Source: Aggregatilineales bacterium
GTDB taxonomy: Bacteria > Chloroflexota > Anaerolineae > Aggregatilineales > Phototrophicaceae
Direction: 5' to 3'
NCBI GenBank assembly: GCA_038251045.1
Contig: JBBSBS010000001.1
Coordinates: forward strand, 1 to 56,914
Length of the DNA: 56,914 bases
Made by a program: the position numbers and the translations under genes. A model generated the notes under the pieces. That model saw only the letters and a list, made by a program, of their open reading frames with translations. It was not told where the DNA came from and ran no database searches. This document shows, piece after piece, positions 4,284-53,408 of this stretch. Numbering within the stretch: the first letter of the stretch is position 1; every line of letters starts with the position of its first letter.

Positions 4284-6256
4284 GACTCATTCAACGTATA
4301 TCTCGCCACAAAGGGTTGAGTACCGCCCATCCTGAATCCCCACCCCAACCCTCCCCCGCAAGCGGAGGGGGTCAAGCAAACCAGAATCACTATTTCCAGT
4401 GGCTAATTCAAAAACGTCTTGTTCCACACCACATTATAGGTGGACGAGGCTGGCGAATTTTATTCGTGCTGCTAGCTGTGGGGCTGGCAGGGTGCGGGGG
4501 ATTGAGCGGCGAGCCGCAGATTGTGGCGACGCTGCCGCCGGTCATAGAGACGATTGAACTGCCGACTACGCCGCCTGATCTGGCGATGGGAGCGACAATA
4601 TTTGCCGAGCGCTGCACACGCTGTCATGGGGTAAGCGGTGCGGGTGACGGCGAATTGATCGGCAGTGGGCCGAACCAGATTGGTAATCATCCACGCAGCT
4701 TTCAGGACGCGGCAACGAGTGCTGACCAGACACCGCTGACATGGTACGAGACGATTACCAACGGGAGCATCCAAAACATGATGCCCCCGTGGAAAGACGC
4801 GCTAACAGCGGAAGAACGGTGGGCGGTTGCCCTGTATACGTACACGCTGCATTATGGACAGGCCGATATTCAGGCGGGTCGTGATTTGATGGCGGGTACG
4901 GCGGTCGCTGCCGCCAGCCTACCTTCGCTTGAAAATGCGGTCACCCTGACGGATGCGGAATTGATTACAGACGTGGGGCTGCCGGGTGCGTTCATTCAAA
5001 GTTTGAGTGAAGCGCAACGGGGCGAGGTGGCGGCTTATTTGCGTTCACTGACAGTAGCACATGCCGAGGAAATGGGTGAGATTACGTCTGCACCGCTGGT
5101 CACAGCAGAACCGCAAGTGACTCCAGAGGTTACCGAGCAAGCGGCAGTGGTTGGGACGGGGACGGTCAGCGGGACAGTGACGAATGGGACGGCGGGCGAA
5201 TCGCTGACGGATGACATGACCGCCAATCTGTATGTCGTGACCTCACAGGGAGCGCTAGCACCGGTTGAAGCGCACATAGAATCAGATGGACGTTTTGCGT
5301 TTGCGAATGTTGATTTGCGTGCTGACCAGCAGTATGTGGTGACGACCAAGTTCAAGGGACGGGCATTCGGCAGCGATGCCAAAGCGGGTGACCCGACGAC
5401 CAATACACTCGATTTACCGATCACCGTTTATGAAACGACGGATGATGCGTCGGTGCTGAATATTTCGACGTGGGAATTGCAAGTACAAATCGTTGGCAAC
5501 ATGCTACAAGTGATTAATTTCATCAAGTTCACTAACAGCAGTGACCGTGCGTATTCAACCAACGATATGGTGGATGACAAACGATTTGCCGGAGTGCAAA
5601 TCCCCGTACCAAATGGGGCGCAAATTTTGAGCGCAAATGTGAGCAATTCAAGATACACGATAAGTGCTGATGGGCACAACGTAATTGATATTGCATCGGT
5701 AATACCTGGCGAGACTTATACGTTCCAAATGGTTTATCTGCTGCCTTATCAGGGCGATCTACAAATTGAGCAGCCTGTTTCCTATACCTTTAACGGTGCT
5801 TACATCTTATTGGTCAACGTACCGAACGCAAGCATCACTTCAGATATTTTAAAAGTACTTGGTCCACAAGATTTAAATGGAGTGCAATATCAAGGTTATG
5901 GGGCGGCTGTCAACCTAAAGTCAGGTGACAAAATCACATATACCATAAAAGGCGGCGTAACTCCCAGTTCAACGACGGGGACAGTCATCAGCGCGGATCA
6001 ACTGGTACCACTGCTGTTCATTTTTGTGGGGTTGATCGCGATTCTAGCGGCAGGTGTGTTGTATATGGGGAAAAACCGTGCGCTCACGGTGCGGCGGGGA
6101 AATGATGATCCCAACGATGTACTGGTTGACGGCTTGATTCAACAAATTGCCGAGGTGGATGAGGCTTACAACACGGGCAAGCTGGATGAAGCGACCTACA
6201 TCAAGCGGCGTGAACGGTTGAAAGCACGGTTAGCGACATTGATTGATGAGGGATAG
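4280..6256 (+). CDS. Membrane-anchored c-type cytochrome lipoprotein with beta-sandwich domains and a C-terminal TM plus SHOCT/CcmI-like tail; true start uncertain
   Basis: Lipobox LAGC; CTRCHG heme motif with MPPW axial Met; GTVSGTVTNGT Ig-like domain; C-terminal TM then LIQQIAEVDEAYNTGKLDEATY. Confidence 0.85.
   Translation: MRLIQRISRHKGLSTAHPESPPQPSPASGGGQANQNHYFQWLIQKRLVPHHIIGGRGWRILFVLLAVGLAGCGGLSGEPQIVATLPPVIETIELPTTPPDLAMGATIFAERCTRCHGVSGAGDGELIGSGPNQIGNHPRSFQDAATSADQTPLTWYETITNGSIQNMMPPWKDALTAEERWAVALYTYTLHYGQADIQAGRDLMAGTAVAAASLPSLENAVTLTDAELITDVGLPGAFIQSLSEAQRGEVAAYLRSLTVAHAEEMGEITSAPLVTAEPQVTPEVTEQAAVVGTGTVSGTVTNGTAGESLTDDMTANLYVVTSQGALAPVEAHIESDGRFAFANVDLRADQQYVVTTKFKGRAFGSDAKAGDPTTNTLDLPITVYETTDDASVLNISTWELQVQIVGNMLQVINFIKFTNSSDRAYSTNDMVDDKRFAGVQIPVPNGAQILSANVSNSRYTISADGHNVIDIASVIPGETYTFQMVYLLPYQGDLQIEQPVSYTFNGAYILLVNVPNASITSDILKVLGPQDLNGVQYQGYGAAVNLKSGDKITYTIKGGVTPSSTTGTVISADQLVPLLFIFVGLIAILAAGVLYMGKNRALTVRRGNDDPNDVLVDGLIQQIAEVDEAYNTGKLDEATYIKRRERLKARLATLIDEG
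4338..4372. repeat. REP-like palindromic element
   Basis: CCCCACCCCAACCCTCCCCCGCAAGCGGAGGGGGT, a CCC-rich arm plus CCGC-AA-GCGG hairpin of a widespread interspersed repeat type. Confidence 0.65.
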
Positions 6257-34656: not shown

Positions 34657-36171
34657 CTACTTCAGTATCGCCGCTGCAATCGTAATTTTATCAGTCAAAT
34701 TAGTCGCAAGGAATGGCAGGATACCCATTACAACTGTACCCGCGAAAGCCACATAAATCGCCCAGTTGACGTATTCGGTCGCGCCTTCAGCCTTATCACC
34801 CTCGCCATCACGCAGATACATATTGACGATGACACGCACATAATAGAACGCGCTCACCACACTCGTCAGCACACCGATGATCGCCAGCGGAATGAGGTTG
34901 GCTTCTAGCGCCACACGGAACACATACCACTTGCCGATGAAACCGGCTGTTAGCGGGATACCGGTCAAACTCAGCATGAACACCGCCATCATGAAAGCCA
35001 ACGCCGGACGGCTCTTTGCCAGCCCAACGAAGTCTTCAAGACTTGTGCCTGTACCGTCGTCCTTTTCAATCGCCATCGCCACGCCGAACGCGCCCAAGTT
35101 GGTAAACATATAGGCGATCAAGTAAAGCAGTGCCGCCTGAATTGCGCCTACGCCCAACCCCGCCGTACCCGCTGCTGCCACTGCCATCATGATATAACCG
35201 GCATGGGCGATCGATGAATAAGCCAACATACGCTTGATATTGGTTTGGGCGATCGCGACGAAATTACCGAGAAGCAGTGTCGCCGCCGCAACCAACCAGA
35301 ATGTCTGCTGCCATGCGGCGATTGTCTCGCCACTGGTCAGGACGAATGTCGGCAGCGCGACGACCACAATCCGCAGCAGCGCAGCGAAACCGCCAATCTT
35401 TGCACCAACGCTCATGAAAGCCGTTACCGGGGTTGGCGCACCTTCGTACACATCCGGTGTCCACATATGGAACGGAACCACCGCCACTTTAAAGCCCAAC
35501 CCCACCAGAATGAGGCCAGTACCCATCAGCAACAGGAAGGCGGATGAACCGCCAGTCGCCACAATCCGTTCGACAGCGACAAAAATCGTGGACAAATTAG
35601 TTGAACCGGTCGCGCCAAACACCAGCGCCGAACCGTAAACAAAGAAAGCGCTGGCAAACGCGCCGAGGATGAAATACTTCATACCGCTTTCTTCCGAGCG
35701 CACATCCGGCACACGGAAAGCTGCCAGCACGTACAACGGAATACTCAGCAGTTCCAGCGCCACGAAGATCGTTACCAGATCATTGGCACTCGCCATAAAC
35801 ATGATACCGCTCAGGCTGAACAGAATGAGCGCATAAAATTCACCGCGCTCGATGCCTGTGCGCTTCAAGTAGTCAATACTCATGAGTACGCTGATGAAGC
35901 CCGTTACGAGGATGATGACGTTGGCAACACTCGTAAAACCGTCAGCGATGTACATGCCTAGAAAAGCCGTGCCTGTTTCGTTGAAGGTGAACATATTCAC
36001 GACGAAACTCAGGACAATAATGCCCAGTGCCAGAAAAGCCGTCACGACTTTGCGGTCACGCGGGACGAACAGCACATCCACCAGCAGCAGCAAACAGGCT
36101 CCCACCGCCAGCACCACACCGGGCGCGGTCATCCACAGGTTTAAATCAGCAAAACTGGGAACTGAAAACAT
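34657..36171 (-). CDS. nuoN: NADH-quinone oxidoreductase subunit N
   Basis: ALELLS, E...KYF, FKVAVVPFHMWTPDVYEGAP and KRMLAYSSIAH motifs. Confidence 0.97.
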   Translation of the reverse strand: MFSVPSFADLNLWMTAPGVVLAVGACLLLLVDVLFVPRDRKVVTAFLALGIIVLSFVVNMFTFNETGTAFLGMYIADGFTSVANVIILVTGFISVLMSIDYLKRTGIERGEFYALILFSLSGIMFMASANDLVTIFVALELLSIPLYVLAAFRVPDVRSEESGMKYFILGAFASAFFVYGSALVFGATGSTNLSTIFVAVERIVATGGSSAFLLLMGTGLILVGLGFKVAVVPFHMWTPDVYEGAPTPVTAFMSVGAKIGGFAALLRIVVVALPTFVLTSGETIAAWQQTFWLVAAATLLLGNFVAIAQTNIKRMLAYSSIAHAGYIMMAVAAAGTAGLGVGAIQAALLYLIAYMFTNLGAFGVAMAIEKDDGTGTSLEDFVGLAKSRPALAFMMAVFMLSLTGIPLTAGFIGKWYVFRVALEANLIPLAIIGVLTSVVSAFYYVRVIVNMYLRDGEGDKAEGATEYVNWAIYVAFAGTVVMGILPFLATNLTDKITIAAAILK

Positions 36172-36239: not shown

Positions 36240-37799
36240 TTAGCGCAGTACAGTGCTCGCTACATTACTCAGGTTCTGTGCCACCTGATTAACTGTCGGC
36301 CCCATCGAGTCGAAGAACGCTTTGGGCTGTACACCAATCCAGATAATAACAACAATCACCGCCACCAGCACGGTAGTTTCGCGCCAGTTGAGCTTCTCTA
36401 GATGTTTATTTTCTTCGTGGGTCACTTCACCCATGAATACCTTCTGATACATATACAGAATGTACACAGCCGCCAGAATGACACCCAATGTGGCGAACAG
36501 TGTGAAGAAGAAACCTAATGTCGTGCTGCCCAATGATCCCAACAAAATGGTGAACTCGCCTACAAAACCATTCAAACCGGGCAAGCCCATGCTGCTCAGT
36601 GCGATAACAAGGCTCAAGCCGCCAAAGACTGGCAGCACCTTCCAGATACCGCCATACGCAGCGATGTCTTTGGTGTGGCGGCGTTCATACAACACACCGA
36701 CGAGCAAGAACAAGCCGCCCGTGCTAACACCATGATTGACCATCTGCAAAATAGCACCCTGAATACCCAGCGTATTCAGCGCGAAGATGCCGAGTATCAC
36801 GAAACCCATATGGCTGACCGATGAATACGCAACCAGCTTTTTCACATCGGTTTGGGCATATGTGACCCATGCACCATAGATGATGCCGATTACGGCTAAG
36901 GTCGCCACGAAAGGAGCCCAATAAATCGAGGCCTGCGGGAACAGCGGCAGGCAGAAGCGGATGATGCCGTATGCGCCGAGCTTCAGCAGCACACCTGCCA
37001 GAATGACCGAACCTGCTGTTGGCGATTGAACGTGCGCGTCCGGAAGCCAACTATGAAACGGCCAGATCGGAACTTTAATCGCGAATGCAATCAGGAAGCC
37101 GAGGAACAGCACCGACTGTACGCTGAACACATCGCTCATCGGGAAAACCAGCGCACCCGACTGAATGAGGGTGATGATTTCCGGCAGTGAGAACGTTCCC
37201 GCGTTGATGCCGACATAAAGGATCGCCAGCAGCATCAAGATCGAACCCGCCATCGTGTACAGGAAGAACTTGACGGCGGCATAAATGCGTCGTTCTGCAC
37301 CCCAGATACCGATCAGGAAGTACATCGGAACCAGTGTCACTTCCCAGAAGATGTAGAACATGAACAGGTCTTGTGCCATGAACACGCCCAGCATAGCGAA
37401 TTCCAGCAGCAGCATAAACACGTAGTACAGGCGATCCCGTCCACGTTCATGCAGCACATGCACCCCAAACGAGCTGAGGATGGCAATCGGCATAATGAAG
37501 GTCGTCAGCACAATCAGCAGGATGCTCACGCCATCCACACCGATGTAGAAGCTGATGCCGAGACTCGGTATCCACTCCATTTGTTGTGCAAACTGCAAAC
37601 CGGGGTTGGAGGCGTTAAAGGTTGCCCACATCACCAGCGAAGCCACAAATGCTGCCCCACTGAAGCCGAGTGCCGTCCACTTAATATTTTCATTTACATG
37701 CCCGTCTGCACCCTGCTCTCGCATGAGTAACAGCGGGATAATCCCAATCAGCGGTAGAAATAACACCACTGTCGAGAGTGAAATCGCAGAACTTACCAT
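36240..37799 (-). CDS. nuoM: NADH-quinone oxidoreductase subunit M
   Basis: FWEVTLVPMY, KFFLYT, IKVPIWPFHSWLPDAH, KKLVAYSSVSH and GFVGEF motifs. Confidence 0.97.
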   Translation of the reverse strand: MVSSAISLSTVVLFLPLIGIIPLLLMREQGADGHVNENIKWTALGFSGAAFVASLVMWATFNASNPGLQFAQQMEWIPSLGISFYIGVDGVSILLIVLTTFIMPIAILSSFGVHVLHERGRDRLYYVFMLLLEFAMLGVFMAQDLFMFYIFWEVTLVPMYFLIGIWGAERRIYAAVKFFLYTMAGSILMLLAILYVGINAGTFSLPEIITLIQSGALVFPMSDVFSVQSVLFLGFLIAFAIKVPIWPFHSWLPDAHVQSPTAGSVILAGVLLKLGAYGIIRFCLPLFPQASIYWAPFVATLAVIGIIYGAWVTYAQTDVKKLVAYSSVSHMGFVILGIFALNTLGIQGAILQMVNHGVSTGGLFLLVGVLYERRHTKDIAAYGGIWKVLPVFGGLSLVIALSSMGLPGLNGFVGEFTILLGSLGSTTLGFFFTLFATLGVILAAVYILYMYQKVFMGEVTHEENKHLEKLNWRETTVLVAVIVVIIWIGVQPKAFFDSMGPTVNQVAQNLSNVASTVLR

Positions 37800-37865
37800 A
37801 AGTACGCTCTCCTCAAAATCCGGCTGCGTTCAAAACTGAACCGCACGATTGCCATTATAACCAAC

Positions 37866-40322
37866 CTACCGCTGTAGGGCAGGGAGTATCAAAATTACGA
37901 TCACCAGTACCACGCCCAGCATTAAACTGATGGCGTAAGTACGCACATATCCGGTCTGTACCAACCGTACTCGACCGCTTACCCAGCGCACGATACTGGC
38001 GACACCATTCACAATGCCATCAATCAGTCCCAGATCAACCGGCTTGCTCAACAATTGCGCGATGCCGTTGAAGCCTTTGGCGATGACAGTCTCGTGGAAA
38101 TAATCATGCCAAAAGCGCCAGTCCAGTGTATCTGCTAGGAACTTCGACATGCGATTAAACGGATTCTCGAATAGCTTGAAGTAGGTTTCGTCCCAGTACA
38201 AACGAGCGTTCGCCAAACCGAAGATGGTCGCGCCACCCGACGGAATGCGATCAACCAATGGATCATGGTCTGTTACTACAGACGACTTACCGCGTCCATA
38301 AATCGAACGTGCCGCAAAGATTGCAAAGATCGCCAACCCCAGCGTGAAGATCGCGATTCCCGGTTGGAAATCAGCGGCGTGCGCATGGACGATACTATAT
38401 TCCAGCCACTCGGTGAAGTTGTGCGCGGTAAAGATATTCTCTAATCCCAAGACATTCTTGGGCGTGTTAATAAAACCACCGAAGGTACTGAGCAGTGCCA
38501 GCACCATCAACGGGAAGGTCATCGAGAATACACTCTCCGGTGCATGGTCGGCTGCCTCCGAACGGGCTTGACCAAAAAACACCATCTCGATCTGCCGCCA
38601 CATATAAAATGCGGTGAACCCCGCCGCGGCGACCAACAACACGAAGGCAATGAAACCACCGGCAGAACTGAGGAATGAACCACCCTCAAGTCCGCGCAGC
38701 CATGAATCTGCCAGAATTTCATCCTTTGACCAGAAGCCAGCCAGCGGGAAGATACCTGCCAGCGCCAGAGTCCCGATCAAATAGGTAATAAAGGTAATCG
38801 GCATCTTACGCGCCAACCCGCCCATGTTGCGCATATCCTGCGGGTCGAACTCCGGCTCGTCATGATGCTCATCACCGTGAGCATCCGCATGTGCGTCATG
38901 CCCATGACCACCTGCGCGTTCGTGTGCCAGATGTTCACCATGTTCCATACCGTGAATGACCGAACCACTGCCAAGGAACAAAAGCGCCTTGAAGAAAGCA
39001 TGTGTCACCAGATGGAACATCGCCGCGCCATACGCGCCCACGCCAACTGCCGCCACCATGAACCCAAGCTGGCTCACGGTACTATAGGCCAGAACGCGCT
39101 TAATATCCCACTGCCCCAACGCTACATAACCAGCCATGATCGCTGTCGTCGCGCCGATGATAGCGACCACGAACGAGGTGAACTCGGCATTGTAGAAAAA
39201 CACGTTGCTGCGACACATCATATACACGCCGGCAGTAACCATCGTCGCGGCATGGATCAGAGCACTAACCGGTGTTGGGCCCGCCATAGCATCCGGCAGC
39301 CATACAAACAAGGGGATTTGTGCCGATTTACCCGTCGCGCCCAAAAGCATAAACAGGGTAATGATAACCAGCACCGTATCAATTGGCAGCGAGAACGGAC
39401 CAAAATCGACTTGATGATTCTCTTTGACCATGCGCTCGGCCTGTCCAAAAACGCCAAGCTGCGCGGTCGGGATGTGATCGTTATTGACATAAACGAGTCC
39501 GGCAACCTCGGTAGCATGACCCTCGCCCTCAGTAGCCGCGGCTTCACCTTCTACCGGATGGGCTTCACCCTCGGCGGCGGCGGCCTCCGTACCGTGTGAC
39601 TCACCTTCAGCCACCACTGCCGCATGTTCCCCGCTGGCAGCACTTTCATGTGCCAACATATCGACGTTGGTGATTTCTCCGGGACGGAAATAATCCAGTG
39701 TGCCGAATGTCCAGAAAATCATGAACACTGCCATCAAAATGCCGAAGTCACCCACACGGTTGGCAATCATGGCTTTACGGGCAGCATTACTATTGCGCCA
39801 GCCCACGCCCTTCGTCCGGTCGAACCAGAAGCCGATCAGTAAGAACGAGCATAAGCCCACGCCTTCCCAACCGACGAACATCATCAGGAAGTTGTTACCA
39901 ACCACCAGAATAAGCATGAAGAACAGGAACAGGTTAAGGTAACTGAAGAAGCGTGTGAAACGTGCATCGCCATGCATGTAACCGATGGAATAAATGTGGA
40001 TGAGCGAGCCAACACCCGTCACCACCAGCATCATGGTTACGCTGAGGGTATCCACCCGCAGTTGCCACGGAATACTGACATTTTGCGAAGCAATCGTAAT
40101 CCAGCCATCAAGAAACGGTGGGTTGACCACCGCTGACTCATAGCCAGTTCCGCGCAGGTATGTCCACAGCAGCACCGCTACGCCAAACGACAACAACGCT
40201 GCTGTCGTACCGAGGATGCTTGACTGTCGCTCACCCAGCCGCGATCCCACAAACAGGTTAATAATAAACCCGATGAGCGGGATAAAAAGAATGAGTGTCA
40301 CTAATGACGGGTAATTTTCCAT
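37866..40322 (-). CDS. nuoL: NADH-quinone oxidoreductase subunit L, enlarged (818 aa)
   Basis: WEGVGLCS, GKSAQIPLFVWLPDAMAGPTPVSALIHAATMV, HAFFKA, SKDEIL and QTGY motifs. Confidence 0.97.
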   Translation of the reverse strand: MENYPSLVTLILFIPLIGFIINLFVGSRLGERQSSILGTTAALLSFGVAVLLWTYLRGTGYESAVVNPPFLDGWITIASQNVSIPWQLRVDTLSVTMMLVVTGVGSLIHIYSIGYMHGDARFTRFFSYLNLFLFFMLILVVGNNFLMMFVGWEGVGLCSFLLIGFWFDRTKGVGWRNSNAARKAMIANRVGDFGILMAVFMIFWTFGTLDYFRPGEITNVDMLAHESAASGEHAAVVAEGESHGTEAAAAEGEAHPVEGEAAATEGEGHATEVAGLVYVNNDHIPTAQLGVFGQAERMVKENHQVDFGPFSLPIDTVLVIITLFMLLGATGKSAQIPLFVWLPDAMAGPTPVSALIHAATMVTAGVYMMCRSNVFFYNAEFTSFVVAIIGATTAIMAGYVALGQWDIKRVLAYSTVSQLGFMVAAVGVGAYGAAMFHLVTHAFFKALLFLGSGSVIHGMEHGEHLAHERAGGHGHDAHADAHGDEHHDEPEFDPQDMRNMGGLARKMPITFITYLIGTLALAGIFPLAGFWSKDEILADSWLRGLEGGSFLSSAGGFIAFVLLVAAAGFTAFYMWRQIEMVFFGQARSEAADHAPESVFSMTFPLMVLALLSTFGGFINTPKNVLGLENIFTAHNFTEWLEYSIVHAHAADFQPGIAIFTLGLAIFAIFAARSIYGRGKSSVVTDHDPLVDRIPSGGATIFGLANARLYWDETYFKLFENPFNRMSKFLADTLDWRFWHDYFHETVIAKGFNGIAQLLSKPVDLGLIDGIVNGVASIVRWVSGRVRLVQTGYVRTYAISLMLGVVLVIVILILPALQR

Positions 40323-40774: not shown

Positions 40775-42088
40775 TCAATCTCCGGCTGCTTCCGGCTGCA
40801 CATCCGGCAAACGCGGAATATTCTCACCGCTTACATCCTGCCCGATCTGGTCGCCGATGACGTTTGTCAGCGGCTTCATCACCTTACGACGTATATCACG
40901 ACGGCGTGGTTGGAAGCCTTCTTTATGCGTCAGCGCAATCGCGCCTACCATAGCCGCCAGCAGCAAAATAGCGATCAATTGGAAGGGCAGCATGTATTTG
41001 CTAAACAACAAATTACCAACCGCCTGCGGACTGCCAAATGGTTCGGATGATTTATCGACCAGAGGAATAGCTACATTGCGTGTGCTGCCGCCGAGTAATG
41101 TCTCGGTTCCCAGCACCAGCAGTTGAGAGGTATCACGCTTGATGTTATAAACTTCCGCGTTATCCAATATGGCTACGGATGCCAGTTTGCTCAGATCTTT
41201 CTGGTTCGCGTCGACTTCGGTGAAAACCCACGACCGCTGACTGGCATCCTCACTCAGAAGTGGCAGTTCAACCAATGAACCGGGCTGAATATCGCCCTGC
41301 ACAATCCGGTCGTCGCGCAGATCAAGTTTCGGCTCGGCATTGTCGGAGGCCGCACCAAAATCCACCAGATTAACCGGTTTGTCATAACCGTTGAAAATTG
41401 CGACCCGCGCCGTACGTGAATCCACCGGTTCCAAATTGCTTTCCACCAAACTGACCTGAGGCGGTGTGCTGGTCGTGCCACCGTAGGCCACAGCAGTATA
41501 GGTATTCGCCTGACGGGTGGTTTCTCCAGACAGTTTAATGGTTACCGTCTGGGCGACAGTATCTGTACCCGCTGGATTAAGCGTAATTGTGTAATCACCC
41601 GGTTCGACCACTTTGAAATCGGTCGACTTACCGAATGACAAGCCGCTAGCGAATAACTCGCCGTTAGCATACACATCAACCGTCCCTGCATATGGCGCGG
41701 CATGTACCACGCGCAGGTTCGGCTCGCGGGTGATGGGTGAGTTCAATTCAATCTTGCCGGTGATGATGCTGTAAAACGACACCATCGCGAAGGCCACCGC
41801 CAGCGCTGTACCCACAATTTCCAACCAGCGAAAACGGCGTACAGGCGCGTTGAGCTTCTCCGCACCCAGCAGCATGATGACAAATAAGAACAACACCATA
41901 ATCGCCCCGGCGTATACAGCAATCTGTATCATGGCGAGGAAAGGTGCGTCCAACATCAGGTATAACAGAGCGACACAGGCAAAGTTCACAATCAGGAACA
42001 AGGCGCTGTGGACGGGGTTATCGCTCAGTAACATAGCTACTGCGGCGAAGACTGCCATACCCATAACAATAATAAACAGTGCTTCCAT
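40775..42088 (-). CDS. nuoJ: NADH-quinone oxidoreductase subunit J with an inserted DUF4397-like domain
   Basis: NPVHSAL, QIAVYAGAIMVLFLFVIML, then ~225 inserted aa, then VG..LF..Y.LPFQ....LL.AMVGAI. Confidence 0.95.
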   Translation of the reverse strand: MEALFIIVMGMAVFAAVAMLLSDNPVHSALFLIVNFACVALLYLMLDAPFLAMIQIAVYAGAIMVLFLFVIMLLGAEKLNAPVRRFRWLEIVGTALAVAFAMVSFYSIITGKIELNSPITREPNLRVVHAAPYAGTVDVYANGELFASGLSFGKSTDFKVVEPGDYTITLNPAGTDTVAQTVTIKLSGETTRQANTYTAVAYGGTTSTPPQVSLVESNLEPVDSRTARVAIFNGYDKPVNLVDFGAASDNAEPKLDLRDDRIVQGDIQPGSLVELPLLSEDASQRSWVFTEVDANQKDLSKLASVAILDNAEVYNIKRDTSQLLVLGTETLLGGSTRNVAIPLVDKSSEPFGSPQAVGNLLFSKYMLPFQLIAILLLAAMVGAIALTHKEGFQPRRRDIRRKVMKPLTNVIGDQIGQDVSGENIPRLPDVQPEAAGD

Positions 42089-43027: not shown

Positions 43028-44845
43028 CTAGCCCTTGTTGGCTTTCTTCTCGCGAATCTTTTCCAGCATCGCCTGCTTATCAAACTTGGGTTTGGCACCG
43101 CCCGCCGCTGCTGGTTTCGCAGTTTCTGCGGGTGCGGCCTTCGCAGGGGCAACCACCGGAGCAGGTACGGCAGCTGCTGCTTGCTTCACCGACGCAGCTA
43201 TTGTCTTTTGTACGGGTGCGGCCTCGCCGCGAAATGTACCGTACTGCTTGGCGAAGGTCACACTAGGGTTTTCTTTGATCGCCAGCGCATTTTCAGTCTT
43301 GACCGGATTCGGGCCAGTCGCGGCAATCTTCTCTAGTTGTTTGATGGTGAACTGTATCAGAGAGAACGGAATAGCCAGCAGCGCACCAACAAACGTCAGA
43401 ATGCTCCAACCGATACCGGTCTGTGCGCCCGTAATAATTGGATCATCCGCCATTTCCTCGGTTGTCTCGGATTGTTCAGTCTTACCCATCTGGCGCAGAT
43501 ACATCCAACCACCACCCGCCACCAGTACGAACAATACACCTGCCGCTATACCGTAAGCCGCCGTACTCTGGAAGGCATCTCCAATGACCAGCGATACAGC
43601 CGTCCAGATGACCGATACCAGAGCCAGTGGCAGCAGCACCTTCCAGCCGAATTGCATGAGTCTGTCGTAACGGATACGCGGCAGTGTCGCACGAATCCAG
43701 ATCATGAAAATTAGCAGTAGTACGACTTTGCCGATCATCACCAGCGGGCCAAGGATCGGCACACTATTGACCAGTCCAAAGCCATCCTGATAACCGCCCA
43801 AGTACAACGCCGAGAAAATCAGGCTGATGGCGATCATACCCAGATATTCCGCCATCATAAACAGCGCGAACTTCATACCGCTGTACTCGGTCATAAAGCC
43901 TGCCGTCAATTCTTGCTCAGCTTCGACCAGATCAAACGGCGCACGGCTGACTTCCGCCAACAGAGCGATGAACAATATGCCCGCCGCTAATGGATTTTGG
44001 AAGATGAACCAGTTCCAGATCATCGGCTGTGCTTTTGAAATATCGCCCAATGCCATGCTGCCGACGATCATCACAGGAACAGCCATACCGAGGCCGAGTG
44101 TCAATTCGTAGCTAATCATCTGTGCCGAAGCGCGCAAGCCACCCAACATGGAATACTTGTTGTTACTCGCCCAACCCGCCAGCACAATACCGTATGTCCC
44201 TATGCTGGTAATGCCCAGAATATACAGAACACCGACACTGGGGTCAGCCAACCCTAACGGTATCTGGTACCACCTGCCGTCAAACCACGGAATGAGTAAA
44301 TCCGGCCCCAGCGGGATAACGGCCAGCACCACCAACACGGGCACGGCCTTAATCATCGGTGCGATAAACCACACCGCATAAGAAACACCCGCCGGTGTGA
44401 TGTCTTCTTTCATAATCAGCTTGACTGCATCCGCTGCTGGCTGCATCAAACCCATCGGCCCTACGCGGTTCGGCCCCACCCGCTGCTGGAACCACGCAAT
44501 AAACTTGCGTTCGAGCAGTGTCGTATAAGCGAAACCTGTAATCACCACCAGCAGCAAAATCGCCGAATAGGCGAAAGCGTGGATAGTCGAGCATGTTGAA
44601 TCCGTCTTGCAAACCACAACCGTTGACGGATCAACCCGTCGCGACGGATTAAACACAAAATTCAGGATGGCATCACCAATCGTGAAGATCACACCTCCGT
44701 TGCCAGAAAGTAGGTTCACGACATCGTAAATCACCGCGCCAACCACTGCCAATGCAATCAATGCGCCCACAATCATAGCAGGGTGAATGCGGAAACCGCC
44801 GCCTGACCCTGCGTTTGGATTGCTATTCATTGTTGATTCAGCCAT
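43028..44845 (-). CDS. nuoH: NADH-quinone oxidoreductase subunit H with N- and C-terminal extensions
   Basis: ERK..A..Q.R.GPNRVG, KEDI.P, ISYE, RAPFDL.EAE.EL, EYSG..F and PR.RYD.L motifs. Confidence 0.96.
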   Translation of the reverse strand: MAESTMNSNPNAGSGGGFRIHPAMIVGALIALAVVGAVIYDVVNLLSGNGGVIFTIGDAILNFVFNPSRRVDPSTVVVCKTDSTCSTIHAFAYSAILLLVVITGFAYTTLLERKFIAWFQQRVGPNRVGPMGLMQPAADAVKLIMKEDITPAGVSYAVWFIAPMIKAVPVLVVLAVIPLGPDLLIPWFDGRWYQIPLGLADPSVGVLYILGITSIGTYGIVLAGWASNNKYSMLGGLRASAQMISYELTLGLGMAVPVMIVGSMALGDISKAQPMIWNWFIFQNPLAAGILFIALLAEVSRAPFDLVEAEQELTAGFMTEYSGMKFALFMMAEYLGMIAISLIFSALYLGGYQDGFGLVNSVPILGPLVMIGKVVLLLIFMIWIRATLPRIRYDRLMQFGWKVLLPLALVSVIWTAVSLVIGDAFQSTAAYGIAAGVLFVLVAGGGWMYLRQMGKTEQSETTEEMADDPIITGAQTGIGWSILTFVGALLAIPFSLIQFTIKQLEKIAATGPNPVKTENALAIKENPSVTFAKQYGTFRGEAAPVQKTIAASVKQAAAAVPAPVVAPAKAAPAETAKPAAAGGAKPKFDKQAMLEKIREKKANKG

Positions 44846-47539: not shown

Positions 47540-47986
47540 TCAATCTATCGGCTCGATGATCGTACCCGCACGTCCCAACGCCCTTAGATTGTAACCATCA
47601 ATCGCCCAACCGCCATTTTGATACACCAGTTGGAATGCCACGAAATGATCACCATCAGCATCAGCGGCACGTCCGGCAACGTACCCTAGATCATCTCTTA
47701 TCGAAAAGTTGTTAAAAGACCAATCCTTAAGCGTGTTACCCGTGAACGATTCGCCGAAGTTCGATCTACTTTCCTGCTCCTGTAAATCCGGGGTGAACAT
47801 CGCGTAGGCATCATCCAACTTGTTGTTTCGCAGCGCCTCCATAAAGGCGTTGGCACTGTCACCCACTTCTCGCGTGCTGTCCAGCATCCCGCTGAAAAGC
47901 TTGATACCACCCAACACACCAATGACCCCACAAACCCCGCAGGCCACTACAATCAGCAACCCAATGATACCGAGTCGCTTAATCAT
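47540..47986 (-). CDS. Membrane-anchored NTF2/DUF4864-like hypothetical protein inside the nuo operon
   Basis: N-terminal TM with ACGVCG; A.AFMEAL.....AY..F...LQ and LVYQNGGWAI.G pattern; overlaps the upstream stop. Confidence 0.75.
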   Translation of the reverse strand: MIKRLGIIGLLIVVACGVCGVIGVLGGIKLFSGMLDSTREVGDSANAFMEALRNNKLDDAYAMFTPDLQEQESRSNFGESFTGNTLKDWSFNNFSIRDDLGYVAGRAADADGDHFVAFQLVYQNGGWAIDGYNLRALGRAGTIIEPID

Positions 47987-48609
47987 AACCGCCGTTGAAC
48001 CTTTTCTAGTCCTGCCAGTGCACGGTCACGCATGGCCTGCTCCATGAAGCCCCAATCTGCGATCTCAAAATGAGCCTCTGCCATCTCATAGGCACACTGA
48101 AAATCAGCGTGTGCCAGCGCGTATTCTCGCAGGTCCATGTACATTTCACCACGCAGCACATAATTCGCAGCGGATTCGGGAGCAACTTCTATCGCTTGGG
48201 TTAGGCTTTCCAACCGCGCCGACAAATCTGCCGGACTACTAAGGAACATACGCCGCACCCGTTGCAGGGTGCTTGGCGGAGTTTGTAAAATAATAGGTAC
48301 TTGTTCTTGTGTATCGTTGACGATTTCCACCGCATCCGGCACATCCGCTAACGGCTCTTGCACAACTTCATCGCGCACTTCTGCATAAACTTCTTCGATA
48401 TTCTCCTCATCTGTGTGCTCAGACGAAAAGTCAGCCGGCGCGCTCGTTAATTCTGGCTCGTGTTCAATTACCAAATCGCCGTTCACTGGAATATCAAAAT
48501 CATCAACAAGGACAAGATCGCTCTCATCCCCTTCAACGATCTCGCTGTTCTCAATATCATGAGGAGCGAAGTCGTCTAACTCTGGATTATCTGGGTCTCT
48601 GCGGTCCAA
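47983..48609 (-). CDS. Protein with an acidic disordered N-terminus and C-terminal TPR, inside the nuo operon
   Basis: Asp/Glu-rich first ~100 aa; LTQAIEVAPESAANYVLRGEMYMDLREYALAHADF TPR. Confidence 0.75.
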   Translation of the reverse strand: MDRRDPDNPELDDFAPHDIENSEIVEGDESDLVLVDDFDIPVNGDLVIEHEPELTSAPADFSSEHTDEENIEEVYAEVRDEVVQEPLADVPDAVEIVNDTQEQVPIILQTPPSTLQRVRRMFLSSPADLSARLESLTQAIEVAPESAANYVLRGEMYMDLREYALAHADFQCAYEMAEAHFEIADWGFMEQAMRDRALAGLEKVQRRL

Positions 48610-48617
48610 ATTGTGTT

Positions 48618-49919
48618 TCAGTCCCCCGCAGCCGCGCCTTGCTTGGCAGGTGCAGATGTCGTCTGGTTAGCAATGTGTTTCTTGAAATCTTCTGGGAAGT
48701 TTTTCGCTGTATGAATAATCGGGTTAGCAGCAAAATCGCCCAAAGCGCACAGGGTTGTACCCTGCATATTCTTGGCGACGTTCACAATCAGGTCAATGTC
48801 GTTGGCCTGCGCTTCATTCGCCATAATCCGGTCAACCACCTTGTCGATCCAGTACGTGCCTTCGCGGCATGGCGTACATTTACCGCAGCTCTCGTGCTTG
48901 AAGAACTTGATGACCTTCGAGGCCACCCAAGTCATATCAACCGTCTCATCCATCACGATAACCGAGGCTGAACCCAGAATTGACCCGGCCTTTGCCATAT
49001 CCTCATAAGAAAGTTTGGTATCCAATATCGGGTCATCATTGCCGTTAACGCGCATGACAGGTCCCGATCCACCCGACGGCAAAATGCCCTTGATCTGCTT
49101 GCCACCCTTGATGCCACCAGCGTGGGTGTACAGCAATTCGCGCATGGTGATGCCCATCGGCAGCTCGTAATTACCGGGCTTTTCCACATGCCCGCTAACA
49201 CAAAACACCTTGGTTCCGGCGCTTTGCTCGGTTCCGATCTTCTTATACTCTTCCGCGCCGTTCGTCATAATCCACGGCACATTCGTCAGGGTTTCGACGT
49301 TGTTGATAACCGTAGGCTCGCCGTACAGGCCGCCGCCCTTATTCGCCGGAAAAGGTGGACGCACTCGCGGTTGTCCCAGCTTGCCTTCCAAACTTTCGAG
49401 CAGCGCGCTTTCCTCACCGCAGATGTACGCACCCGCGCCAAGGTGGGTATAAACTGGGCACGACCAACCGCTGCCCATGATGTTGTCGAAGACGTAGCCG
49501 CCTTTTCGCGCTTCCTCAATATAGCCATCCAGCGCGTGGCCTTGATCCCAGAACTCGCCGCGCAAATAGATGTAAACGGCTGTCGCCTGAATCGCGTAGG
49601 CACAAATCAACGCACCTTCGATCAGTTGGTGCGGGTTCGTCTCAATGATTTCGCGATCTTTAAACGTACCGGTTTCGCTCTCGTCGCAATTCACCGTCAC
49701 GTACTTAACCGGTTCGGATTGTGGGATGAAACTCCACTTCAAACCGGTAGGGAAGCCCGCGCCGCCGCGACCACGCAGCCCCGAAGCCTTCACCAGATCA
49801 ATGACCTCGGTAGGCTTCATCGAAAGGGCTTTCTTCAAGCCTTCGTAGCCACCATTCTTGACATAAACATCCAGCTTGTCTAAATTCGGGATGTCGCGTC
49901 CGCGCAGTAAAATATTCAT
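48618..49919 (-). CDS. nuoF: NADH-quinone oxidoreductase subunit F
   Basis: GLRGRGGAGFPTGLKW, GAGAYICGEESAL and ESCGKCTPCREG...C motifs. Confidence 0.98.
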   Translation of the reverse strand: MNILLRGRDIPNLDKLDVYVKNGGYEGLKKALSMKPTEVIDLVKASGLRGRGGAGFPTGLKWSFIPQSEPVKYVTVNCDESETGTFKDREIIETNPHQLIEGALICAYAIQATAVYIYLRGEFWDQGHALDGYIEEARKGGYVFDNIMGSGWSCPVYTHLGAGAYICGEESALLESLEGKLGQPRVRPPFPANKGGGLYGEPTVINNVETLTNVPWIMTNGAEEYKKIGTEQSAGTKVFCVSGHVEKPGNYELPMGITMRELLYTHAGGIKGGKQIKGILPSGGSGPVMRVNGNDDPILDTKLSYEDMAKAGSILGSASVIVMDETVDMTWVASKVIKFFKHESCGKCTPCREGTYWIDKVVDRIMANEAQANDIDLIVNVAKNMQGTTLCALGDFAANPIIHTAKNFPEDFKKHIANQTTSAPAKQGAAAGD

Positions 49920-49949
49920 TGTCGTCTCCCGACGCTTACATTAATACTA

Positions 49950-50429
49950 TTACTTGGATTCTGCTCGCCACTCATCAAGCTGCGCCCGCATTTTGTCCAT
50001 GTCCAACTTCTCGACAAAATGGAAGTTGCATTGCAGCATCGGTGCTTTGTCGCAGGCCGCAAGGCACATCACATGCTCAACCGTGAACAGGCCATCTTCG
50101 GTCGTCCCGCCGTCATCAACTTTCAACTCGGTTTTCAAGTCCTCATAGAACTTGTCTGCACCGCACAGCGCACATGCCAGATCAGTGCATACCTGTAACC
50201 AGTATTTACCTTTGGGGCTTTCAGAATACATGGTATAGAAACCCGCGATAGACTTCACCTGTGTCGGATCCATCTCACAAATTTCAGCCACTTCCTGAAT
50301 ACCTTCCGGGCTGACCCAACCGTATTCTTCCTGTGCCAGATGCAGCATCGGCATCACTGCCGACCGCTTGTCAGGATATTTGGTAAACGTCTTTTCTATC
50401 TGCGCCGAGTACTTCTCTGTTAAAGCCAT
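49950..50429 (-). CDS. nuoE: NADH-quinone oxidoreductase subunit E
   Basis: FYTMY and CTDLAC...CLAAC..AP (2Fe-2S) motifs. Confidence 0.97.
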   Translation of the reverse strand: MALTEKYSAQIEKTFTKYPDKRSAVMPMLHLAQEEYGWVSPEGIQEVAEICEMDPTQVKSIAGFYTMYSESPKGKYWLQVCTDLACALCGADKFYEDLKTELKVDDGGTTEDGLFTVEHVMCLAACDKAPMLQCNFHFVEKLDMDKMRAQLDEWRAESK

Positions 50430-50454
50430 AATCTGTCCTAAAATGGTTATGGTA

Positions 50455-50482
50455 TAGGGGCTGCCAGCGGCAAACCCCTACA
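50455..50482. repeat. REP-like palindrome, TTTGCCGCTGGCA-core family
   Basis: TAGGGGCTGCCAGCGGCAAACCCCTACA; related copies at 52411 and 56294. Confidence 0.65.
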
Positions 50483-50514
50483 TAAAACGCATCATTTACT
50501 ATCGGTGTTTGATC

Positions 50515-51780
50515 TTAACGGTCACAATCGCCCAGCACCACATCCACACTGCCTACAATCGCCACCAGATCAGCAATCATATGACCGTGAGTCATGATCG
50601 GCAGTGCCCCGATGTGAATGAACGACGGGGTCTTAAAGTGTACCCGTCGCGGCTTGTTCCCGCCCGTACCATGAATATAGCAGCCGATTTCCCCACGTGG
50701 GCTTTCAATCGCGCTAAAAACCTCTTGGTCAGGTGCGGCGAACCCTTCCGTCCACAACTTAAAGTGGTGGATGACGGCTTCCATGCTCTGCCCCAGTTCG
50801 GCACGCGGTGGCGGCACAAACTTGCGATCTTGTGACCGGAACGCGCCTTTCGCTGGCAGCTTCTTAATCGCCTGCTTCAGAATCTTCACACTTTCGCGCA
50901 TCTCAAGAATACGCACATAGAAGCGGTCGTACACATCGCCGTGTTCGCCGATTGGAATGTTAAACTCAAATTCGTCATAGCTGCTGTAGGGCATCGACTT
51001 GCGAATGTCCCACGCCACACCACTGCCGCGTAGGCTCGGGCCGGTAATGCCCCACGCCAGCGCCTTTTCCGGCTCAATTACACCGATTCCCTGTGTGCGG
51101 TCAATCCATAACGGGTTTTTCGTCAGCAGCTTCTCGTAATCATCAATCCGTGCTGGAAAGATTTCGAGGAAGGCTTCCAACTGCGGCAAGAAATCCGCGG
51201 GGAAGTCACGCCACAATCCACCCGGACGAATGTAACTGCCCATCAAACGTTGACCCGAAAGCGTCTCGAACATCTTTAGGATGATTTCGCGCTCACGGAA
51301 CGCATACAGGAACACACTCATCGCGCCCATATCAATCGCGTGCGTACCCAACCACACCAGATGGCTGTTCAAGCGTGTCAGTTCCATACAAATCACACGC
51401 ATAATCTGCGCACGTTTTGGCACATCCAACCCGACCAACTTTTCCACCGCCATGCAATACGCCATGTTGTTCGACATCGGCGCAAGATAATCCATGCGGT
51501 CGGTCAGTGTGACGGCTTTTTCGTATGTCTTGGACTCGATATTTTTTTCGATACCTGTGTGCAAAAAGCCCACATCAGGCAGGCAAGTCACCACTTCCTC
51601 GCCATCCAGTTCCAGCAGCAGCCGCAGCACACCATGCGTGCTGGGATGATGCGGCCCCATGTTCAGCAGCATCGTCTCGCCTGTCATGGCACGCTCGGAA
51701 ACCAACCCCTTTAATTCATCAAGAGCGCCCTGCCACTCATTGATTTCGCCAACGTTATCGCCAGCCGTTTCTATTGCCAT
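50515..51780 (-). CDS. nuoD: NADH-quinone oxidoreductase subunit D
   Basis: NMGPHHPSTHGVLRL, DRMDY, ESPRGE and D.VLGD.DR motifs. Confidence 0.98.
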   Translation of the reverse strand: MAIETAGDNVGEINEWQGALDELKGLVSERAMTGETMLLNMGPHHPSTHGVLRLLLELDGEEVVTCLPDVGFLHTGIEKNIESKTYEKAVTLTDRMDYLAPMSNNMAYCMAVEKLVGLDVPKRAQIMRVICMELTRLNSHLVWLGTHAIDMGAMSVFLYAFREREIILKMFETLSGQRLMGSYIRPGGLWRDFPADFLPQLEAFLEIFPARIDDYEKLLTKNPLWIDRTQGIGVIEPEKALAWGITGPSLRGSGVAWDIRKSMPYSSYDEFEFNIPIGEHGDVYDRFYVRILEMRESVKILKQAIKKLPAKGAFRSQDRKFVPPPRAELGQSMEAVIHHFKLWTEGFAAPDQEVFSAIESPRGEIGCYIHGTGGNKPRRVHFKTPSFIHIGALPIMTHGHMIADLVAIVGSVDVVLGDCDR

Positions 51781-51846
51781 TGTATTTACCCCGCCATCTC
51801 GACGTTTTGGCTTAATACCGAACTGTCTTTGCCTGTCACTTGCGAC

Positions 51847-52383
51847 TTACTCGCGTGACTTCGGCTTATGTTTCATAATTTCTTCTACATTGAAAGAGAA
51901 CATCGGTGTCTCGTAACCCAATGGATAATCCCGACGGTGCGGGTGACCATTCCAATCTTCAGGCATCAAAATACGCCGTTTGTCCGGGTGTCCATTGAAA
52001 TCGATACCCATCATATCCATCACTTCGCGCTCCGGCCAATTCGCACCGGGCCACACAGTCGTTAGGGTCTCCACCGTTGGGTTTTCTTCCGGCAGATAAA
52101 CCTTCAGCCGCAGCCGCCGTTTGTACAGCATCGACAGCAAATGATAGCTTACGCCAAACCGCTCCGGTCGATTGTAATCCGGATAATAATCAACCGCGCT
52201 AATGTCTGAAAGGAAGTTATAGACTAACCCTGCCGTATCGCGCACATACCGTGCCACGGCTGGCAGATAATCCGGATTCAAGACCAGTGTCGTATCGCCT
52301 GCATACTCCACCACATCTTCGACCGCCTGTGGATACGCCTTTTTCACAGCCTCTACCGGGTCAATTGCTGCTGCTACGCTCAT
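51847..52383 (-). CDS. nuoC: NADH-quinone oxidoreductase subunit C
   Basis: SAVDY, RF.V.YHL.S, ANWPERE..DM.G..F.GHP..RRIL and GHP.RRDYP motifs. Confidence 0.97.
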   Translation of the reverse strand: MSVAAAIDPVEAVKKAYPQAVEDVVEYAGDTTLVLNPDYLPAVARYVRDTAGLVYNFLSDISAVDYYPDYNRPERFGVSYHLLSMLYKRRLRLKVYLPEENPTVETLTTVWPGANWPEREVMDMMGIDFNGHPDKRRILMPEDWNGHPHRRDYPLGYETPMFSFNVEEIMKHKPKSRE

Positions 52384-52410
52384 AAATCGTCCTTGGAATA
52401 AATCGTGCTG

Positions 52411-52438
52411 AAGGGCTTACCACTGGCAAACCCTTACA
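52411..52438. repeat. REP-like palindrome, same family as 50455
   Basis: AAGGGCTTACCACTGGCAAACCCTTACA. Confidence 0.65.
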
Positions 52439-52487
52439 TCGCTAAATTTTCTCGCTGTCGATGCCTGTTTAATCCCACAAGTCGAGA

Positions 52488-53006
52488 TTAGACGGTAATT
52501 CTTTCCGCAGCACGGGCTTCATCATCAGCCCAATAACGGATGCTCTCGCCCTTGATCTTTTCGTGTAGGGTCAGGATACCGTGCAGCAGTTGTTCCGGAC
52601 GCGGCGGGCAGCCCGCCACATATACATCAACCGGAATAATCTCGTCGCAGCCCTGTACCACCGCATAGTTGTTGTACACACCACCGCACGAGGCGCAGTC
52701 ACCCATCGAGATAACCCACTTCGGTGCCGACATTTGATCGTACAACTGGCGAACCACCGGAGCCATCTTGCGTGTCAACCGTCCCGAAACAATCAGCAAA
52801 TCGGCCTGTCGCGGGCTAGCACGGTTCAATTCCATCCCGAAGCGGGACAAGTCATAAGACGAACCCTGTGTACCCATATATTCAATCGCGCAGCAGGCCA
52901 ACCCGAACAGCAGCGGCCACATAGCGCCTGTACGTCCCCAGTTAACGGCTGCATCCAGTGTGGTTGTCACCACGCCCAGATTGCCGAGTTTTGAGCTTAC
53001 TCCCAT
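52488..53006 (-). CDS. nuoB: NADH-quinone oxidoreductase subunit B
   Basis: [19 protein letters not shown] and GCPPRPE motifs. Confidence 0.98.
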
Positions 53007-53356
53007 TCCATTGCGCCTTTCTTCCACTCGTAAATGAACCCAATCGTCAAGATGAATAAAAATACGCCCATAACGATTAAGCCGTAAATCCCTAGGTCGC
53101 GCACTTGCACTGCCCAGGGTAGGAAGAACACGACTTCCACATCAAAAATGATGAACAGCAGCCCCACCAGATAAAACTTGATGGGCAGACGACGGTTCGC
53201 CGGGCCAATCGGCTTCATACCGCTTTCATACGGCGCAGCCTTACGTGAATTTGGGCGGTGCGGCCCAAATATCCACGAAATAACCACCACTATAAATGCA
53301 ACAAGTGCAGCCAGTGCGAAGAGTGCGCCTATCGGGGCAAATTCATTAAGTGCCAT
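52997..53356 (-). CDS. nuoA: NADH-quinone oxidoreductase subunit A
   Basis: [19 protein letters not shown] and YEWKKGA.EW motifs. Confidence 0.97.
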
Positions 53357-53408
53357 AGTTTGCTTCCCTGCGGGACTTTGTGCTATTTTGAACAAATAAG
53401 TCTAACGT

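What the first reader, a model, noticed from the sequence alone, without database searches (positions are those of the whole stretch)
37950..38198. NuoL transverse helix lengthened by a ~30-aa duplication although the operon has only one nuoM
Seen: there are 80 residues from the conserved YWD to QTG, formed by two similar units (YWDETYFKLFENPFNRMSKFLADTLDWR / FWHDYFHETVIAKGFNGIAQLLSKPVDLG). Only one nuoM lies between nuoL and nuoN. Known: this span is about 47-50 aa in canonical NuoL/Nqo12 (my recollection of E. coli and Thermus), and large insertions in this amphipathic helix are the described signature of complex I variants with a fourth proton-pumping subunit (2M complexes). Thirty helical residues span about 45 A, roughly one antiporter subunit. 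Inference: the complex may take two copies of the single NuoM (L-M-M-N), recruit a NuoM encoded elsewhere, or be a relic of a 2M ancestor. The first two would be a cryptic four-pump complex I that gene counting misses.
Basis: partly seen in the sequence, partly recalled or inferred. Interest (0 to 1): 0.85.

Follow-up and report, generated by a model that had tools for sequence, protein, structure and literature searches.

The report
Four-pump strap, three pump genes
The side helix that straps together the proton pumps of this bacterium's NADH dehydrogenase (complex I) carries one extra, well-conserved 29-residue module although the operon has only three pump genes, so the enzyme likely holds a fourth pump, most likely a second copy of NuoM; this is untested, and long straps beside one nuoM gene are already known elsewhere.

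Summary
Observation confirmed. NuoL's lateral helix spans 80 residues (YWD to QTG) against 47-52 in three solved complexes. The excess is one old 29-residue duplication (8 helical turns), predicted to continue in line. The operon has one nuoM.

It is a clade trait of Anaerolineae NADH-type complex I: 70 of 79 measurable relatives are long, 9 are short (all 51), none lies between. The tree shows one gain and three clean losses. No long operon had two nuoM (0 of 66 genome loci and 0 of 56 metagenome loci reaching nuoN), so a decaying 2M relic is unlikely.

This genome, like nearly all long-helix relatives, also holds a separate true 2M operon with an independently duplicated helix, so borrowing is not excluded. 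Indirect signs favour L-M-M-N from one gene (about 50%): a sister family keeps long helices with no spare pump gene; near-identical nuoM duplicates exist; NuoM Met404 and the nuoM ribosome site track the insert (weak).

Long helix plus single nuoM is in print (PMC9040806), and this scan found it three times in other genomes. The 29-residue first-unit type is not in the papers I could search.

The parts
37866..40322 (-). nuoL, 818 aa, complex I antiporter-like subunit L with lengthened lateral helix HL
   Evidence: TIGR01974 636.5 bits, cut-off 407.5; Z 46 to solved NuoL
38121..38207 (-). HL unit A, residues 706-734; invariant D711, Y714, D734; lies on the path of the canonical helix in the model
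38034..38120 (-). HL unit A', residues 735-763: the extra 29-aa module; invariant H739, H743, D763, near-invariant W735, F737
37950..38033 (-). HL unit B, residues 764-791, ending in the conserved QTG; invariant D768, Q789, G791
37872..37949 (-). last transmembrane helix of NuoL (residues 792-817)
   Evidence: predicted helix 792-817
37809..37814 (-). Shine-Dalgarno-like GAGGAG in front of nuoM, the strongest of the nuoK, L, M and N sites in this operon
   Evidence: -8.6 against -8.1, -7.3 and -6.6 kcal/mol
36240..37799 (-). the single nuoM, 519 aa; E153, K177, K242, H249, K273, E415 invariant in 71 aligned long-helix sequences
36588..36590 (-). NuoM Met404 (just before the conserved E415 helix), which co-varies with the insert
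34657..36171 (-). nuoN, 504 aa
40412..47440 (-). nuoG, H, I, J, K (NuoH with a long C-terminal tail, NuoJ with a DUF4397 insert)
   Evidence: I and K named from sequence and gene order
48618..53395 (-). nuoA, B, C, D, E, F; with nuoG the operon carries the NADH-oxidising EFG module
   Evidence: NuoF; A-E named from sequence and gene order

Best explanation
This NuoL carries one extra 29-residue module in its lateral helix in an operon with a single nuoM, and the assembled NADH:quinone oxidoreductase likely has four antiporter-like subunits in the order L-M-M-N, with the one NuoM predicted to be built in twice. Shown: an exact one-module, eight-turn duplication, conserved across several Anaerolineae families, gained once and lost three times as a whole, always beside one nuoM. 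Predicted: the module continues the helix in line by about 43 A and keeps the same faces. Inferred: since both old docking ends are unchanged, the extra length must span one more pump; NuoM is the subunit that could stack on itself; it would need to be made at twice the rate of NuoL and NuoN; and the complex would move about one more proton per NADH or, run backwards, reduce NAD+ at a lower proton-motive force.
For: Lengths are quantised: 79-81 in 70 and 51 in 9 of 79 measurable loci. D734-to-Q spacing is 55 in 78, 56 in 1 and unmeasurable in 1 of 80 metagenome loci, which were picked by the insert's own motif. The insert is as conserved as the old units (entropy 1.53 against 1.50 and 1.65) with three invariant polar residues in 66 of 66. 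Y714, H739, H743 and D768 fall on one ideal-helix face (100-140 degrees), and the hydrophobic moment repeats (190 and 192 degrees). AlphaFold2 gives one unbroken helix 710-785, pLDDT 81-87 over 711-750, which superimposes on E. coli HL up to residue 748, into the insert. The tree built without HL columns needs 4 changes, read as one gain and three whole-unit losses. In the sister EFG-less family, 20 fetched operons have a 77-78 residue helix and one nuoM. G151 (6 contigs, 97% complete) has only one L, M, N, D and H in the whole genome, so nothing can be borrowed there. Family f40 has L-M-M-N with nuoM copies 80% and 89% identical, so near-identical NuoMs can be neighbours. NuoM Met404 is in 77 of 78 long forms and 0 of 21 short ones, changing in all three loss lineages. 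A Shine-Dalgarno core precedes nuoM in 64 of 81 long and 9 of 22 short operons, while nuoL shows 40 of 78 and 17 of 21. In the sister family nuoM's site beats nuoL's in 20 of 20.
Against: No stoichiometry, structure or proton count exists. Every adequately assembled long-A genome has other nuoM genes: 42 of 44 gave three or more NuoM matches and the other two gave two. The three with one match still hold the second nuoCD and look incomplete. The Met404 signal is one column, and the same scan on the 2M operon also gave 2 hits against 0.31 expected. The ribosome-site signal rests on only 4 independent pairs and cannot reach significance (median p = 1); among Anaerolineales long forms nuoM's site is usually weaker than nuoL's. 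A' has invariant His where unit B has Asp (739 against 768), which may suit a different partner better than a second identical NuoM. Model confidence falls to 57-61 over 761-780. In Manganitrophus Mn1, RNA values for its two single-nuoM clusters fall from L to M to N with no NuoM excess (PMC9040806 Table S6 rows; RNA only). From recalled midpoint potentials, five protons per NADH-to-menaquinone step would be hard to drive forward at a usual proton-motive force.
Confidence: 0.5

Rival explanations
1. The arm has only three pumps. The extra module kinks out along the membrane surface or binds something else (an accessory protein, lipid or quinone, or a metal at H739/D740/H743), or the last helix docks further towards NuoH.
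For: Gene content is canonical in every long operon seen. Three lineages lost the unit with almost no other conserved change in L, M, N, J or K. P761 and lower model confidence allow a break near 760. A His-x3-His pair on one helix face is a common metal-binding pattern (own knowledge).
Against: The length is fixed at eight turns with helical phase kept and no turn motif beyond the repeated unit. The model is continuous and in line. Both docking ends are unchanged. The insert is not tied to the NuoJ or NuoH extensions: long forms occur with a 170-aa NuoJ and a 335-aa NuoH.
Confidence: 0.28
2. The arm has four pumps, but the fourth is borrowed from the genome's other complex I (M1 or M2 of the L-M1-M2-N operon on contig C413).
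For: The genome encodes both. All 44 long-A class genomes tested have extra nuoM genes. The 2M operon is also in the short-helix sister family f5, so it was probably present when the insert arose. The invariant His pair differs from unit B. M2 also has Met at position 404 (25 of 25).
Against: All nine short-helix genomes also hold extra nuoM genes, so co-occurrence may be simple joint inheritance. M1 and M2 are only about 32-36% identical to this NuoM and belong to another lineage. The sister family keeps long helices with nothing to borrow.
Confidence: 0.17
3. The insert is a left-over from a 2M ancestor that lost one nuoM and no longer spans a pump.
For: Three lineages dropped the unit. In the sister family the best tree puts the single M with M1, which would fit loss of M2, although the opposite order is not rejected (p-AU 0.19).
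Against: No A-type operon with two nuoM was found (0 of 66 and 0 of 56 loci reaching nuoN). All outgroups lack the A-type insert. The unit shows no decay across proteins only about 52% identical. The genome's 2M NuoL duplicates the other unit, so it is not the source.
Confidence: 0.05

Closest known systems
Single-nuoM complex I clusters with an HL insertion in 'Ca. Manganitrophaceae' (Complex_I_1 and Complex_I_2; PMC9040806, passages read, Fig. S2 not seen)
   Same: Canonical gene content, a lengthened NuoL helix, and a genome that also holds a multi-pump complex I. The authors already suggest such complexes can take extra pumps or are in transition.
   Different: Different phylum. I did not see those sequences, so whether their insert repeats the first or the second unit is untested. 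No gain/loss history or stoichiometry argument appears in the passages read.
2M complex I (Chadwick, Hemp, Fischer, Orphan 2018, ISME J 12:2668; paper not held, known only through PMC9040806, PMC6606698 and PMC7117926 passages)
   Same: NuoL helix longer by about one module. The Chloroflexi form (nuoL-M-M-N, nuoBCDI elsewhere with fused CD) is present in this genome as a second system.
   Different: This operon has one nuoM and a full EFG module. Its insert is 29 aa and repeats the first unit, whereas Anaerolineae 2M NuoL spans 77-81 and repeats the second unit. Its NuoM lies in a different lineage from M1 and M2.
Canonical three-pump complex I (E. coli 3RKO, T. thermophilus 4HE8, M. smegmatis 8E9G, Paracoccus 8QBY)
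   Same: Same fold (Z 43-46), same 14 genes, and conserved charged residues in NuoM.
   Different: The helix span is 47-52 in the three aligned structures, against 80 here. None of the top 50 structural matches is described as a four-pump complex.

Membership tests
Complex I subunit NuoL | Scores above the family cut-off and has the NuoL fold | tested here: met
   TIGR01974 636.5 against 407.5 and NF005141 644.5 against 556; Z 46.4, rmsd 3.3 over 576 residues to 8e9g_L
2M complex I | Lengthened amphipathic helix of NuoL | tested here: met
   80 against 51 residues, +29
2M complex I | A second nuoM gene in the cluster | tested here: not met
   one nuoM here; none of 66 + 56 related loci reaching nuoN has two
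2M complex I, Chloroflexi form | nuoL-M-M-N with nuoBCDI separate and nuoCD fused (PMC7117926) | tested here: not met
   not this operon (A-N together, C and D separate); met by the genome's other system on C494, C413, C516 and C43
2M complex I | Four antiporter-like subunits in the assembled enzyme | not testable with these tools
   needs a structure or stoichiometry; only indirect signs here
2M complex I | Higher H+/2e- ratio | not testable with these tools
   proposed, not measured, in the passages read
Manganitrophaceae-type long NuoL with one nuoM | Canonical cluster plus HL insertion, in a genome with another multi-pump complex I | tested here: met
Manganitrophaceae-type long NuoL with one nuoM | Same insert (length, position, common origin) | not tested
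   those sequences were not fetched; the A-type profile matched nothing outside the class at E <= 1e-13 among 301 genomes of the phylum, and other phyla were not searched

The most novel reading that the evidence does not exclude
A large part of the Anaerolineae builds a four-pump, NADH-linked complex I from three pump genes by using NuoM twice. Helix length, not gene count, sets the number of pumps, and lineages switch between three and four by gaining or deleting one helix module. Using one NuoM twice would be the step before nuoM duplication, seen as a recent event in family f40, and would explain how 2M complexes arise repeatedly.
Probability: 0.45. Interest if true: 0.85.

Novelty: new variant of a known kind. 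Interest (0 to 1): 0.55.

Why it matters
Pump number in complex I is read from gene count. If a helix module sets it instead, many genomes scored as canonical have a different proton stoichiometry, which changes energy budgets and the ease of reverse electron flow. It would also show that the pump chain can be extended with an identical subunit, a direct test of how coupling passes along the arm. This clade offers natural long/short sister pairs and one residue (NuoM 404) to test.

Tried and rejected
Complex prediction of two NuoM copies (59-512) with HL 702-793: no answer (score 0.00 twice, controls not folded); not used either way.

Chadwick 2018 is not held by DOI or PMC id, so it may already discuss long NuoL in one-nuoM Chloroflexi operons. 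Paper searches for this arrangement or for HL contact residues: searches gave only the papers cited or unrelated ones; searches gave none. Fig. S2 of PMC9040806 is not held as text.

No RNA holder was listed for the operon. A collapsed nuoM duplicate was rejected.

G110, G344 and G038 as 'long helix, no spare NuoM' were rejected, because each still holds the second nuoCD and G038 also a second nuoH. The family search around G110 gave only 4 genomes.

Order of events in the EFG-less family is unresolved: M1+M2 as one clade is not rejected (p-AU 0.19), the second test did not finish, and the careful tree was replaced by the quick one. Sliding comparison of single M with M1 and M2 showed no clear mosaic. 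The L-M spacer length does not separate long from short. Tree-aware test of ribosome sites: 4 pairs, not significant.

Rows dropped: L054 (cut NuoL) from the span count; 29 of 79 genomes left out by its 50-genome limit; L033, L035 and L078 have a broken nuoM and fell out of the NuoM alignments; L144, L146, L130, L132, L162, L165, L174 and seven f46-type spans (L118, L120-L126 except where parsed) were not parsed by the pattern and were classed by eye; L189 (broken M) and L148, L181, L194 (cut) were left out of the single-M class; 24 of 80 metagenome loci did not reach nuoN.

Full report
Observation. The window holds a full nuoA-N operon on the minus strand with the NADH-oxidising EFG module. 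NuoL has 80 residues from Y709 to Q789. Three solved complexes give 47, 50 and 52 for this span, counted by hand, and HMMER aligns them to only one of the two units. Residues 706-734 (A) and 735-763 (A') are an old tandem repeat: 6 of 29 identical, lag 29 the only clear peak, 5 of 2000 shuffles as high. One nuoM lies between nuoL and nuoN.

The genome. G000 is a 7.0 Mb assembly in 731 contigs, 94% complete and 6% contaminated. Its closest NuoL relatives are labelled Aggregatilineales or Anaerolineae. It holds a second complex I split over C494, C413, C516 and C43, with L-M1-M2-N (I call the copy next to nuoL M1) and a fused nuoCD elsewhere. That matches the Chloroflexi 2M layout described in PMC7117926 (passage). 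Its NuoL spans 78 residues by repeating the second unit, so the two long helices arose independently.

Distribution. Of 80 related loci, 79 were measurable: 66 at 80, 2 at 79, 2 at 81 and 9 at 51. Among the 70 long ones, 69 show a nuoM, 66 reach nuoN and none has two nuoM. Of 80 metagenome loci chosen by the insert's motif, 56 reach nuoN and none has two. In a 301-genome class survey the A-type form appears in families f1, f2, f10, f13, f33, f46 and single genomes of f20 and f8. It was not found outside the class among 301 genomes of the phylum. A tree of NuoL core, NuoM and NuoH without the helix columns (56 rows, FastTree) needs four changes, all forced by starred branches. Rooted on short outgroups this reads as one gain and three losses: an Anaerolineaceae group, L056 and L133. 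Each loss returns to exactly 51.

Anatomy. In 66 long forms D711, Y714, D734, H739, H743, D763, D768, Q789 and G791 are invariant, and the new unit is as conserved as the old ones. 29 residues are 8.06 turns, about 43 A. The hydrophobic moments of 721-733 and 749-762 point the same way, and Y714, H739, H743 and D768 share a face on an ideal helix. AlphaFold2 with 59 sequences gives one helix from 710 to 785, pLDDT 81-87 to residue 750 and 57-61 over 761-780. It superimposes on E. coli NuoL as 5-732 on 1-562 and 5-748 on 1-574, so the insert continues along the canonical path. PMC3046159 (passages) places the lateral helix on M and N and the last helix at N, and shows that M K173/H241 and N K158/H224 matter for activity. 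Their equivalents are invariant in the long forms. That the helix's Asp and Glu/Gln anchors bind these lysines is my recollection, not from a call. On that reading the long helix has three anchors (D734, D763, Q789) where short forms have two.

What fills the extra length. Borrowing cannot be excluded here: 42 of 44 long-A genomes gave three or more NuoM matches, and the three genomes with a single match look incomplete. But short-helix genomes hold extra nuoM genes too. In the EFG-less sister family, 20 fetched operons combine a 77-78 residue helix with one nuoM (picked by score, not at random). G151, 97% complete in 6 contigs, has just one L, M, N, D and H. Family f40 evolved a third long helix with recent nuoM copies, 80% and 89% identical; in G160 the first 370 residues are identical, which could be an assembly artefact. 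G115 has a near-perfect helix repeat with one nuoM in the operon.

Two weak signs point at this operon's own NuoM. Met404 is present in 77 of 78 long forms and absent from all three loss lineages and 12 outgroups; NuoL S452 behaves alike, and the control on the 2M operon also gave two hits. A Shine-Dalgarno core precedes nuoM in 64 of 81 genome and 59 of 67 metagenome long operons against 9 of 22 short ones, and the ranking against nuoL flips. In the sister family the nuoM site averages -11.0 against -7.0 for M1 of 2M operons. Kin are not independent, starts were inferred, only four independent pairs exist, and Anaerolineales long forms do not show the energy difference. Published RNA values for Manganitrophus single-nuoM clusters show no NuoM excess (supplement rows).

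Prior knowledge. PMC9040806 (passages) reports the insertion in NuoL of canonical one-nuoM clusters and offers the same two readings. PMC6606698 (passages) summarises the 2M definition. Chadwick 2018 was not available. Three earlier notes of this scan describe 26-27 residue versions with one nuoM in other genomes; none matched this sequence. I found no paper on the 29-residue first-unit type or on double use of NuoM; most subscription journals are not searched.

Verdict. Real, conserved and functional, but a clade trait and a variant of a known pattern. Four pumps from one nuoM used twice 0.50; three pumps with another role for the module 0.28; borrowed pump 0.17; relic 0.05. It is not a member of the 2M family by gene content, but it likely works like one. 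Interest 0.55.

Noticed in passing
L081:3085-4803 (G000:C413) and 24 other 2M operons: The second NuoM (M2) of Anaerolineae 2M operons lacks the central lysine equivalent to window K242 (Leu in 24, Met in 1 of 25), so it may not be an ordinary pump.
   Followed up: partly
window 43028-43170; L083:2807-2944 and about 5585-5700: The Ala/Lys-rich C-terminal tail of this operon's NuoH recurs at the ends of NuoI (77% over 47 aa) and NuoB (by eye) of the 2M system: a shared tag on subunits of two different complexes.
   Followed up: no
window 40775-42088: NuoJ is 437 aa with an inserted DUF4397 domain; most Aggregatilineales-type relatives share the long NuoJ.
   Followed up: partly
L115 (G216), L116 (G160): An independent, recent 2M operon with the EFG module: nuoM copies 80% and 89% identical, plus a second-unit helix repeat.
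   Followed up: partly
L117:2491-4557 (G115): NuoL with a near-perfect 27-residue helix repeat, one nuoM, and no nuoN or second nuoM directly after it.
   Followed up: partly
L147, L150-L153, L175-L193: The EFG-less complex I family keeps a 77-78 residue helix with one nuoM in many families, and nuoM has a Shine-Dalgarno core in 20 of 20. G151 is the cleanest test case.
   Followed up: yes
L130:10414-16531 (G283:C134): A nuoJ-K-L cassette with the A-type long helix is followed directly by a nuoJ-like gene, a 2M-type nuoL and nuoM; may be a hybrid or a misassembly.
   Followed up: no
L120-L126 (family f46): The operon ends at nuoM; nuoN is 3 kb away or elsewhere.
   Followed up: no
G000:C226, C713: C226 is a Proteobacteria-like nuoL-M-N contig (my reading of the sequences) and C713 a second NuoG at 84% identity; probably contamination.
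   Followed up: no
G000:C40, C263, C516: An Mrp-type antiporter cluster (C40, C263); ATP synthase genes directly follow the 2M nuoN (C516).
   Followed up: no
window 47540-48609: Two extra ORFs between nuoF and nuoG: one weakly DUF4864-like, one without a Pfam match.
   Followed up: partly
window about 39500-39610 and 38850-38930: NuoL has a long acidic Ala/Glu/Gly-rich loop (238-269) and a His-rich loop (about 466-490), both of low model confidence.
   Followed up: no
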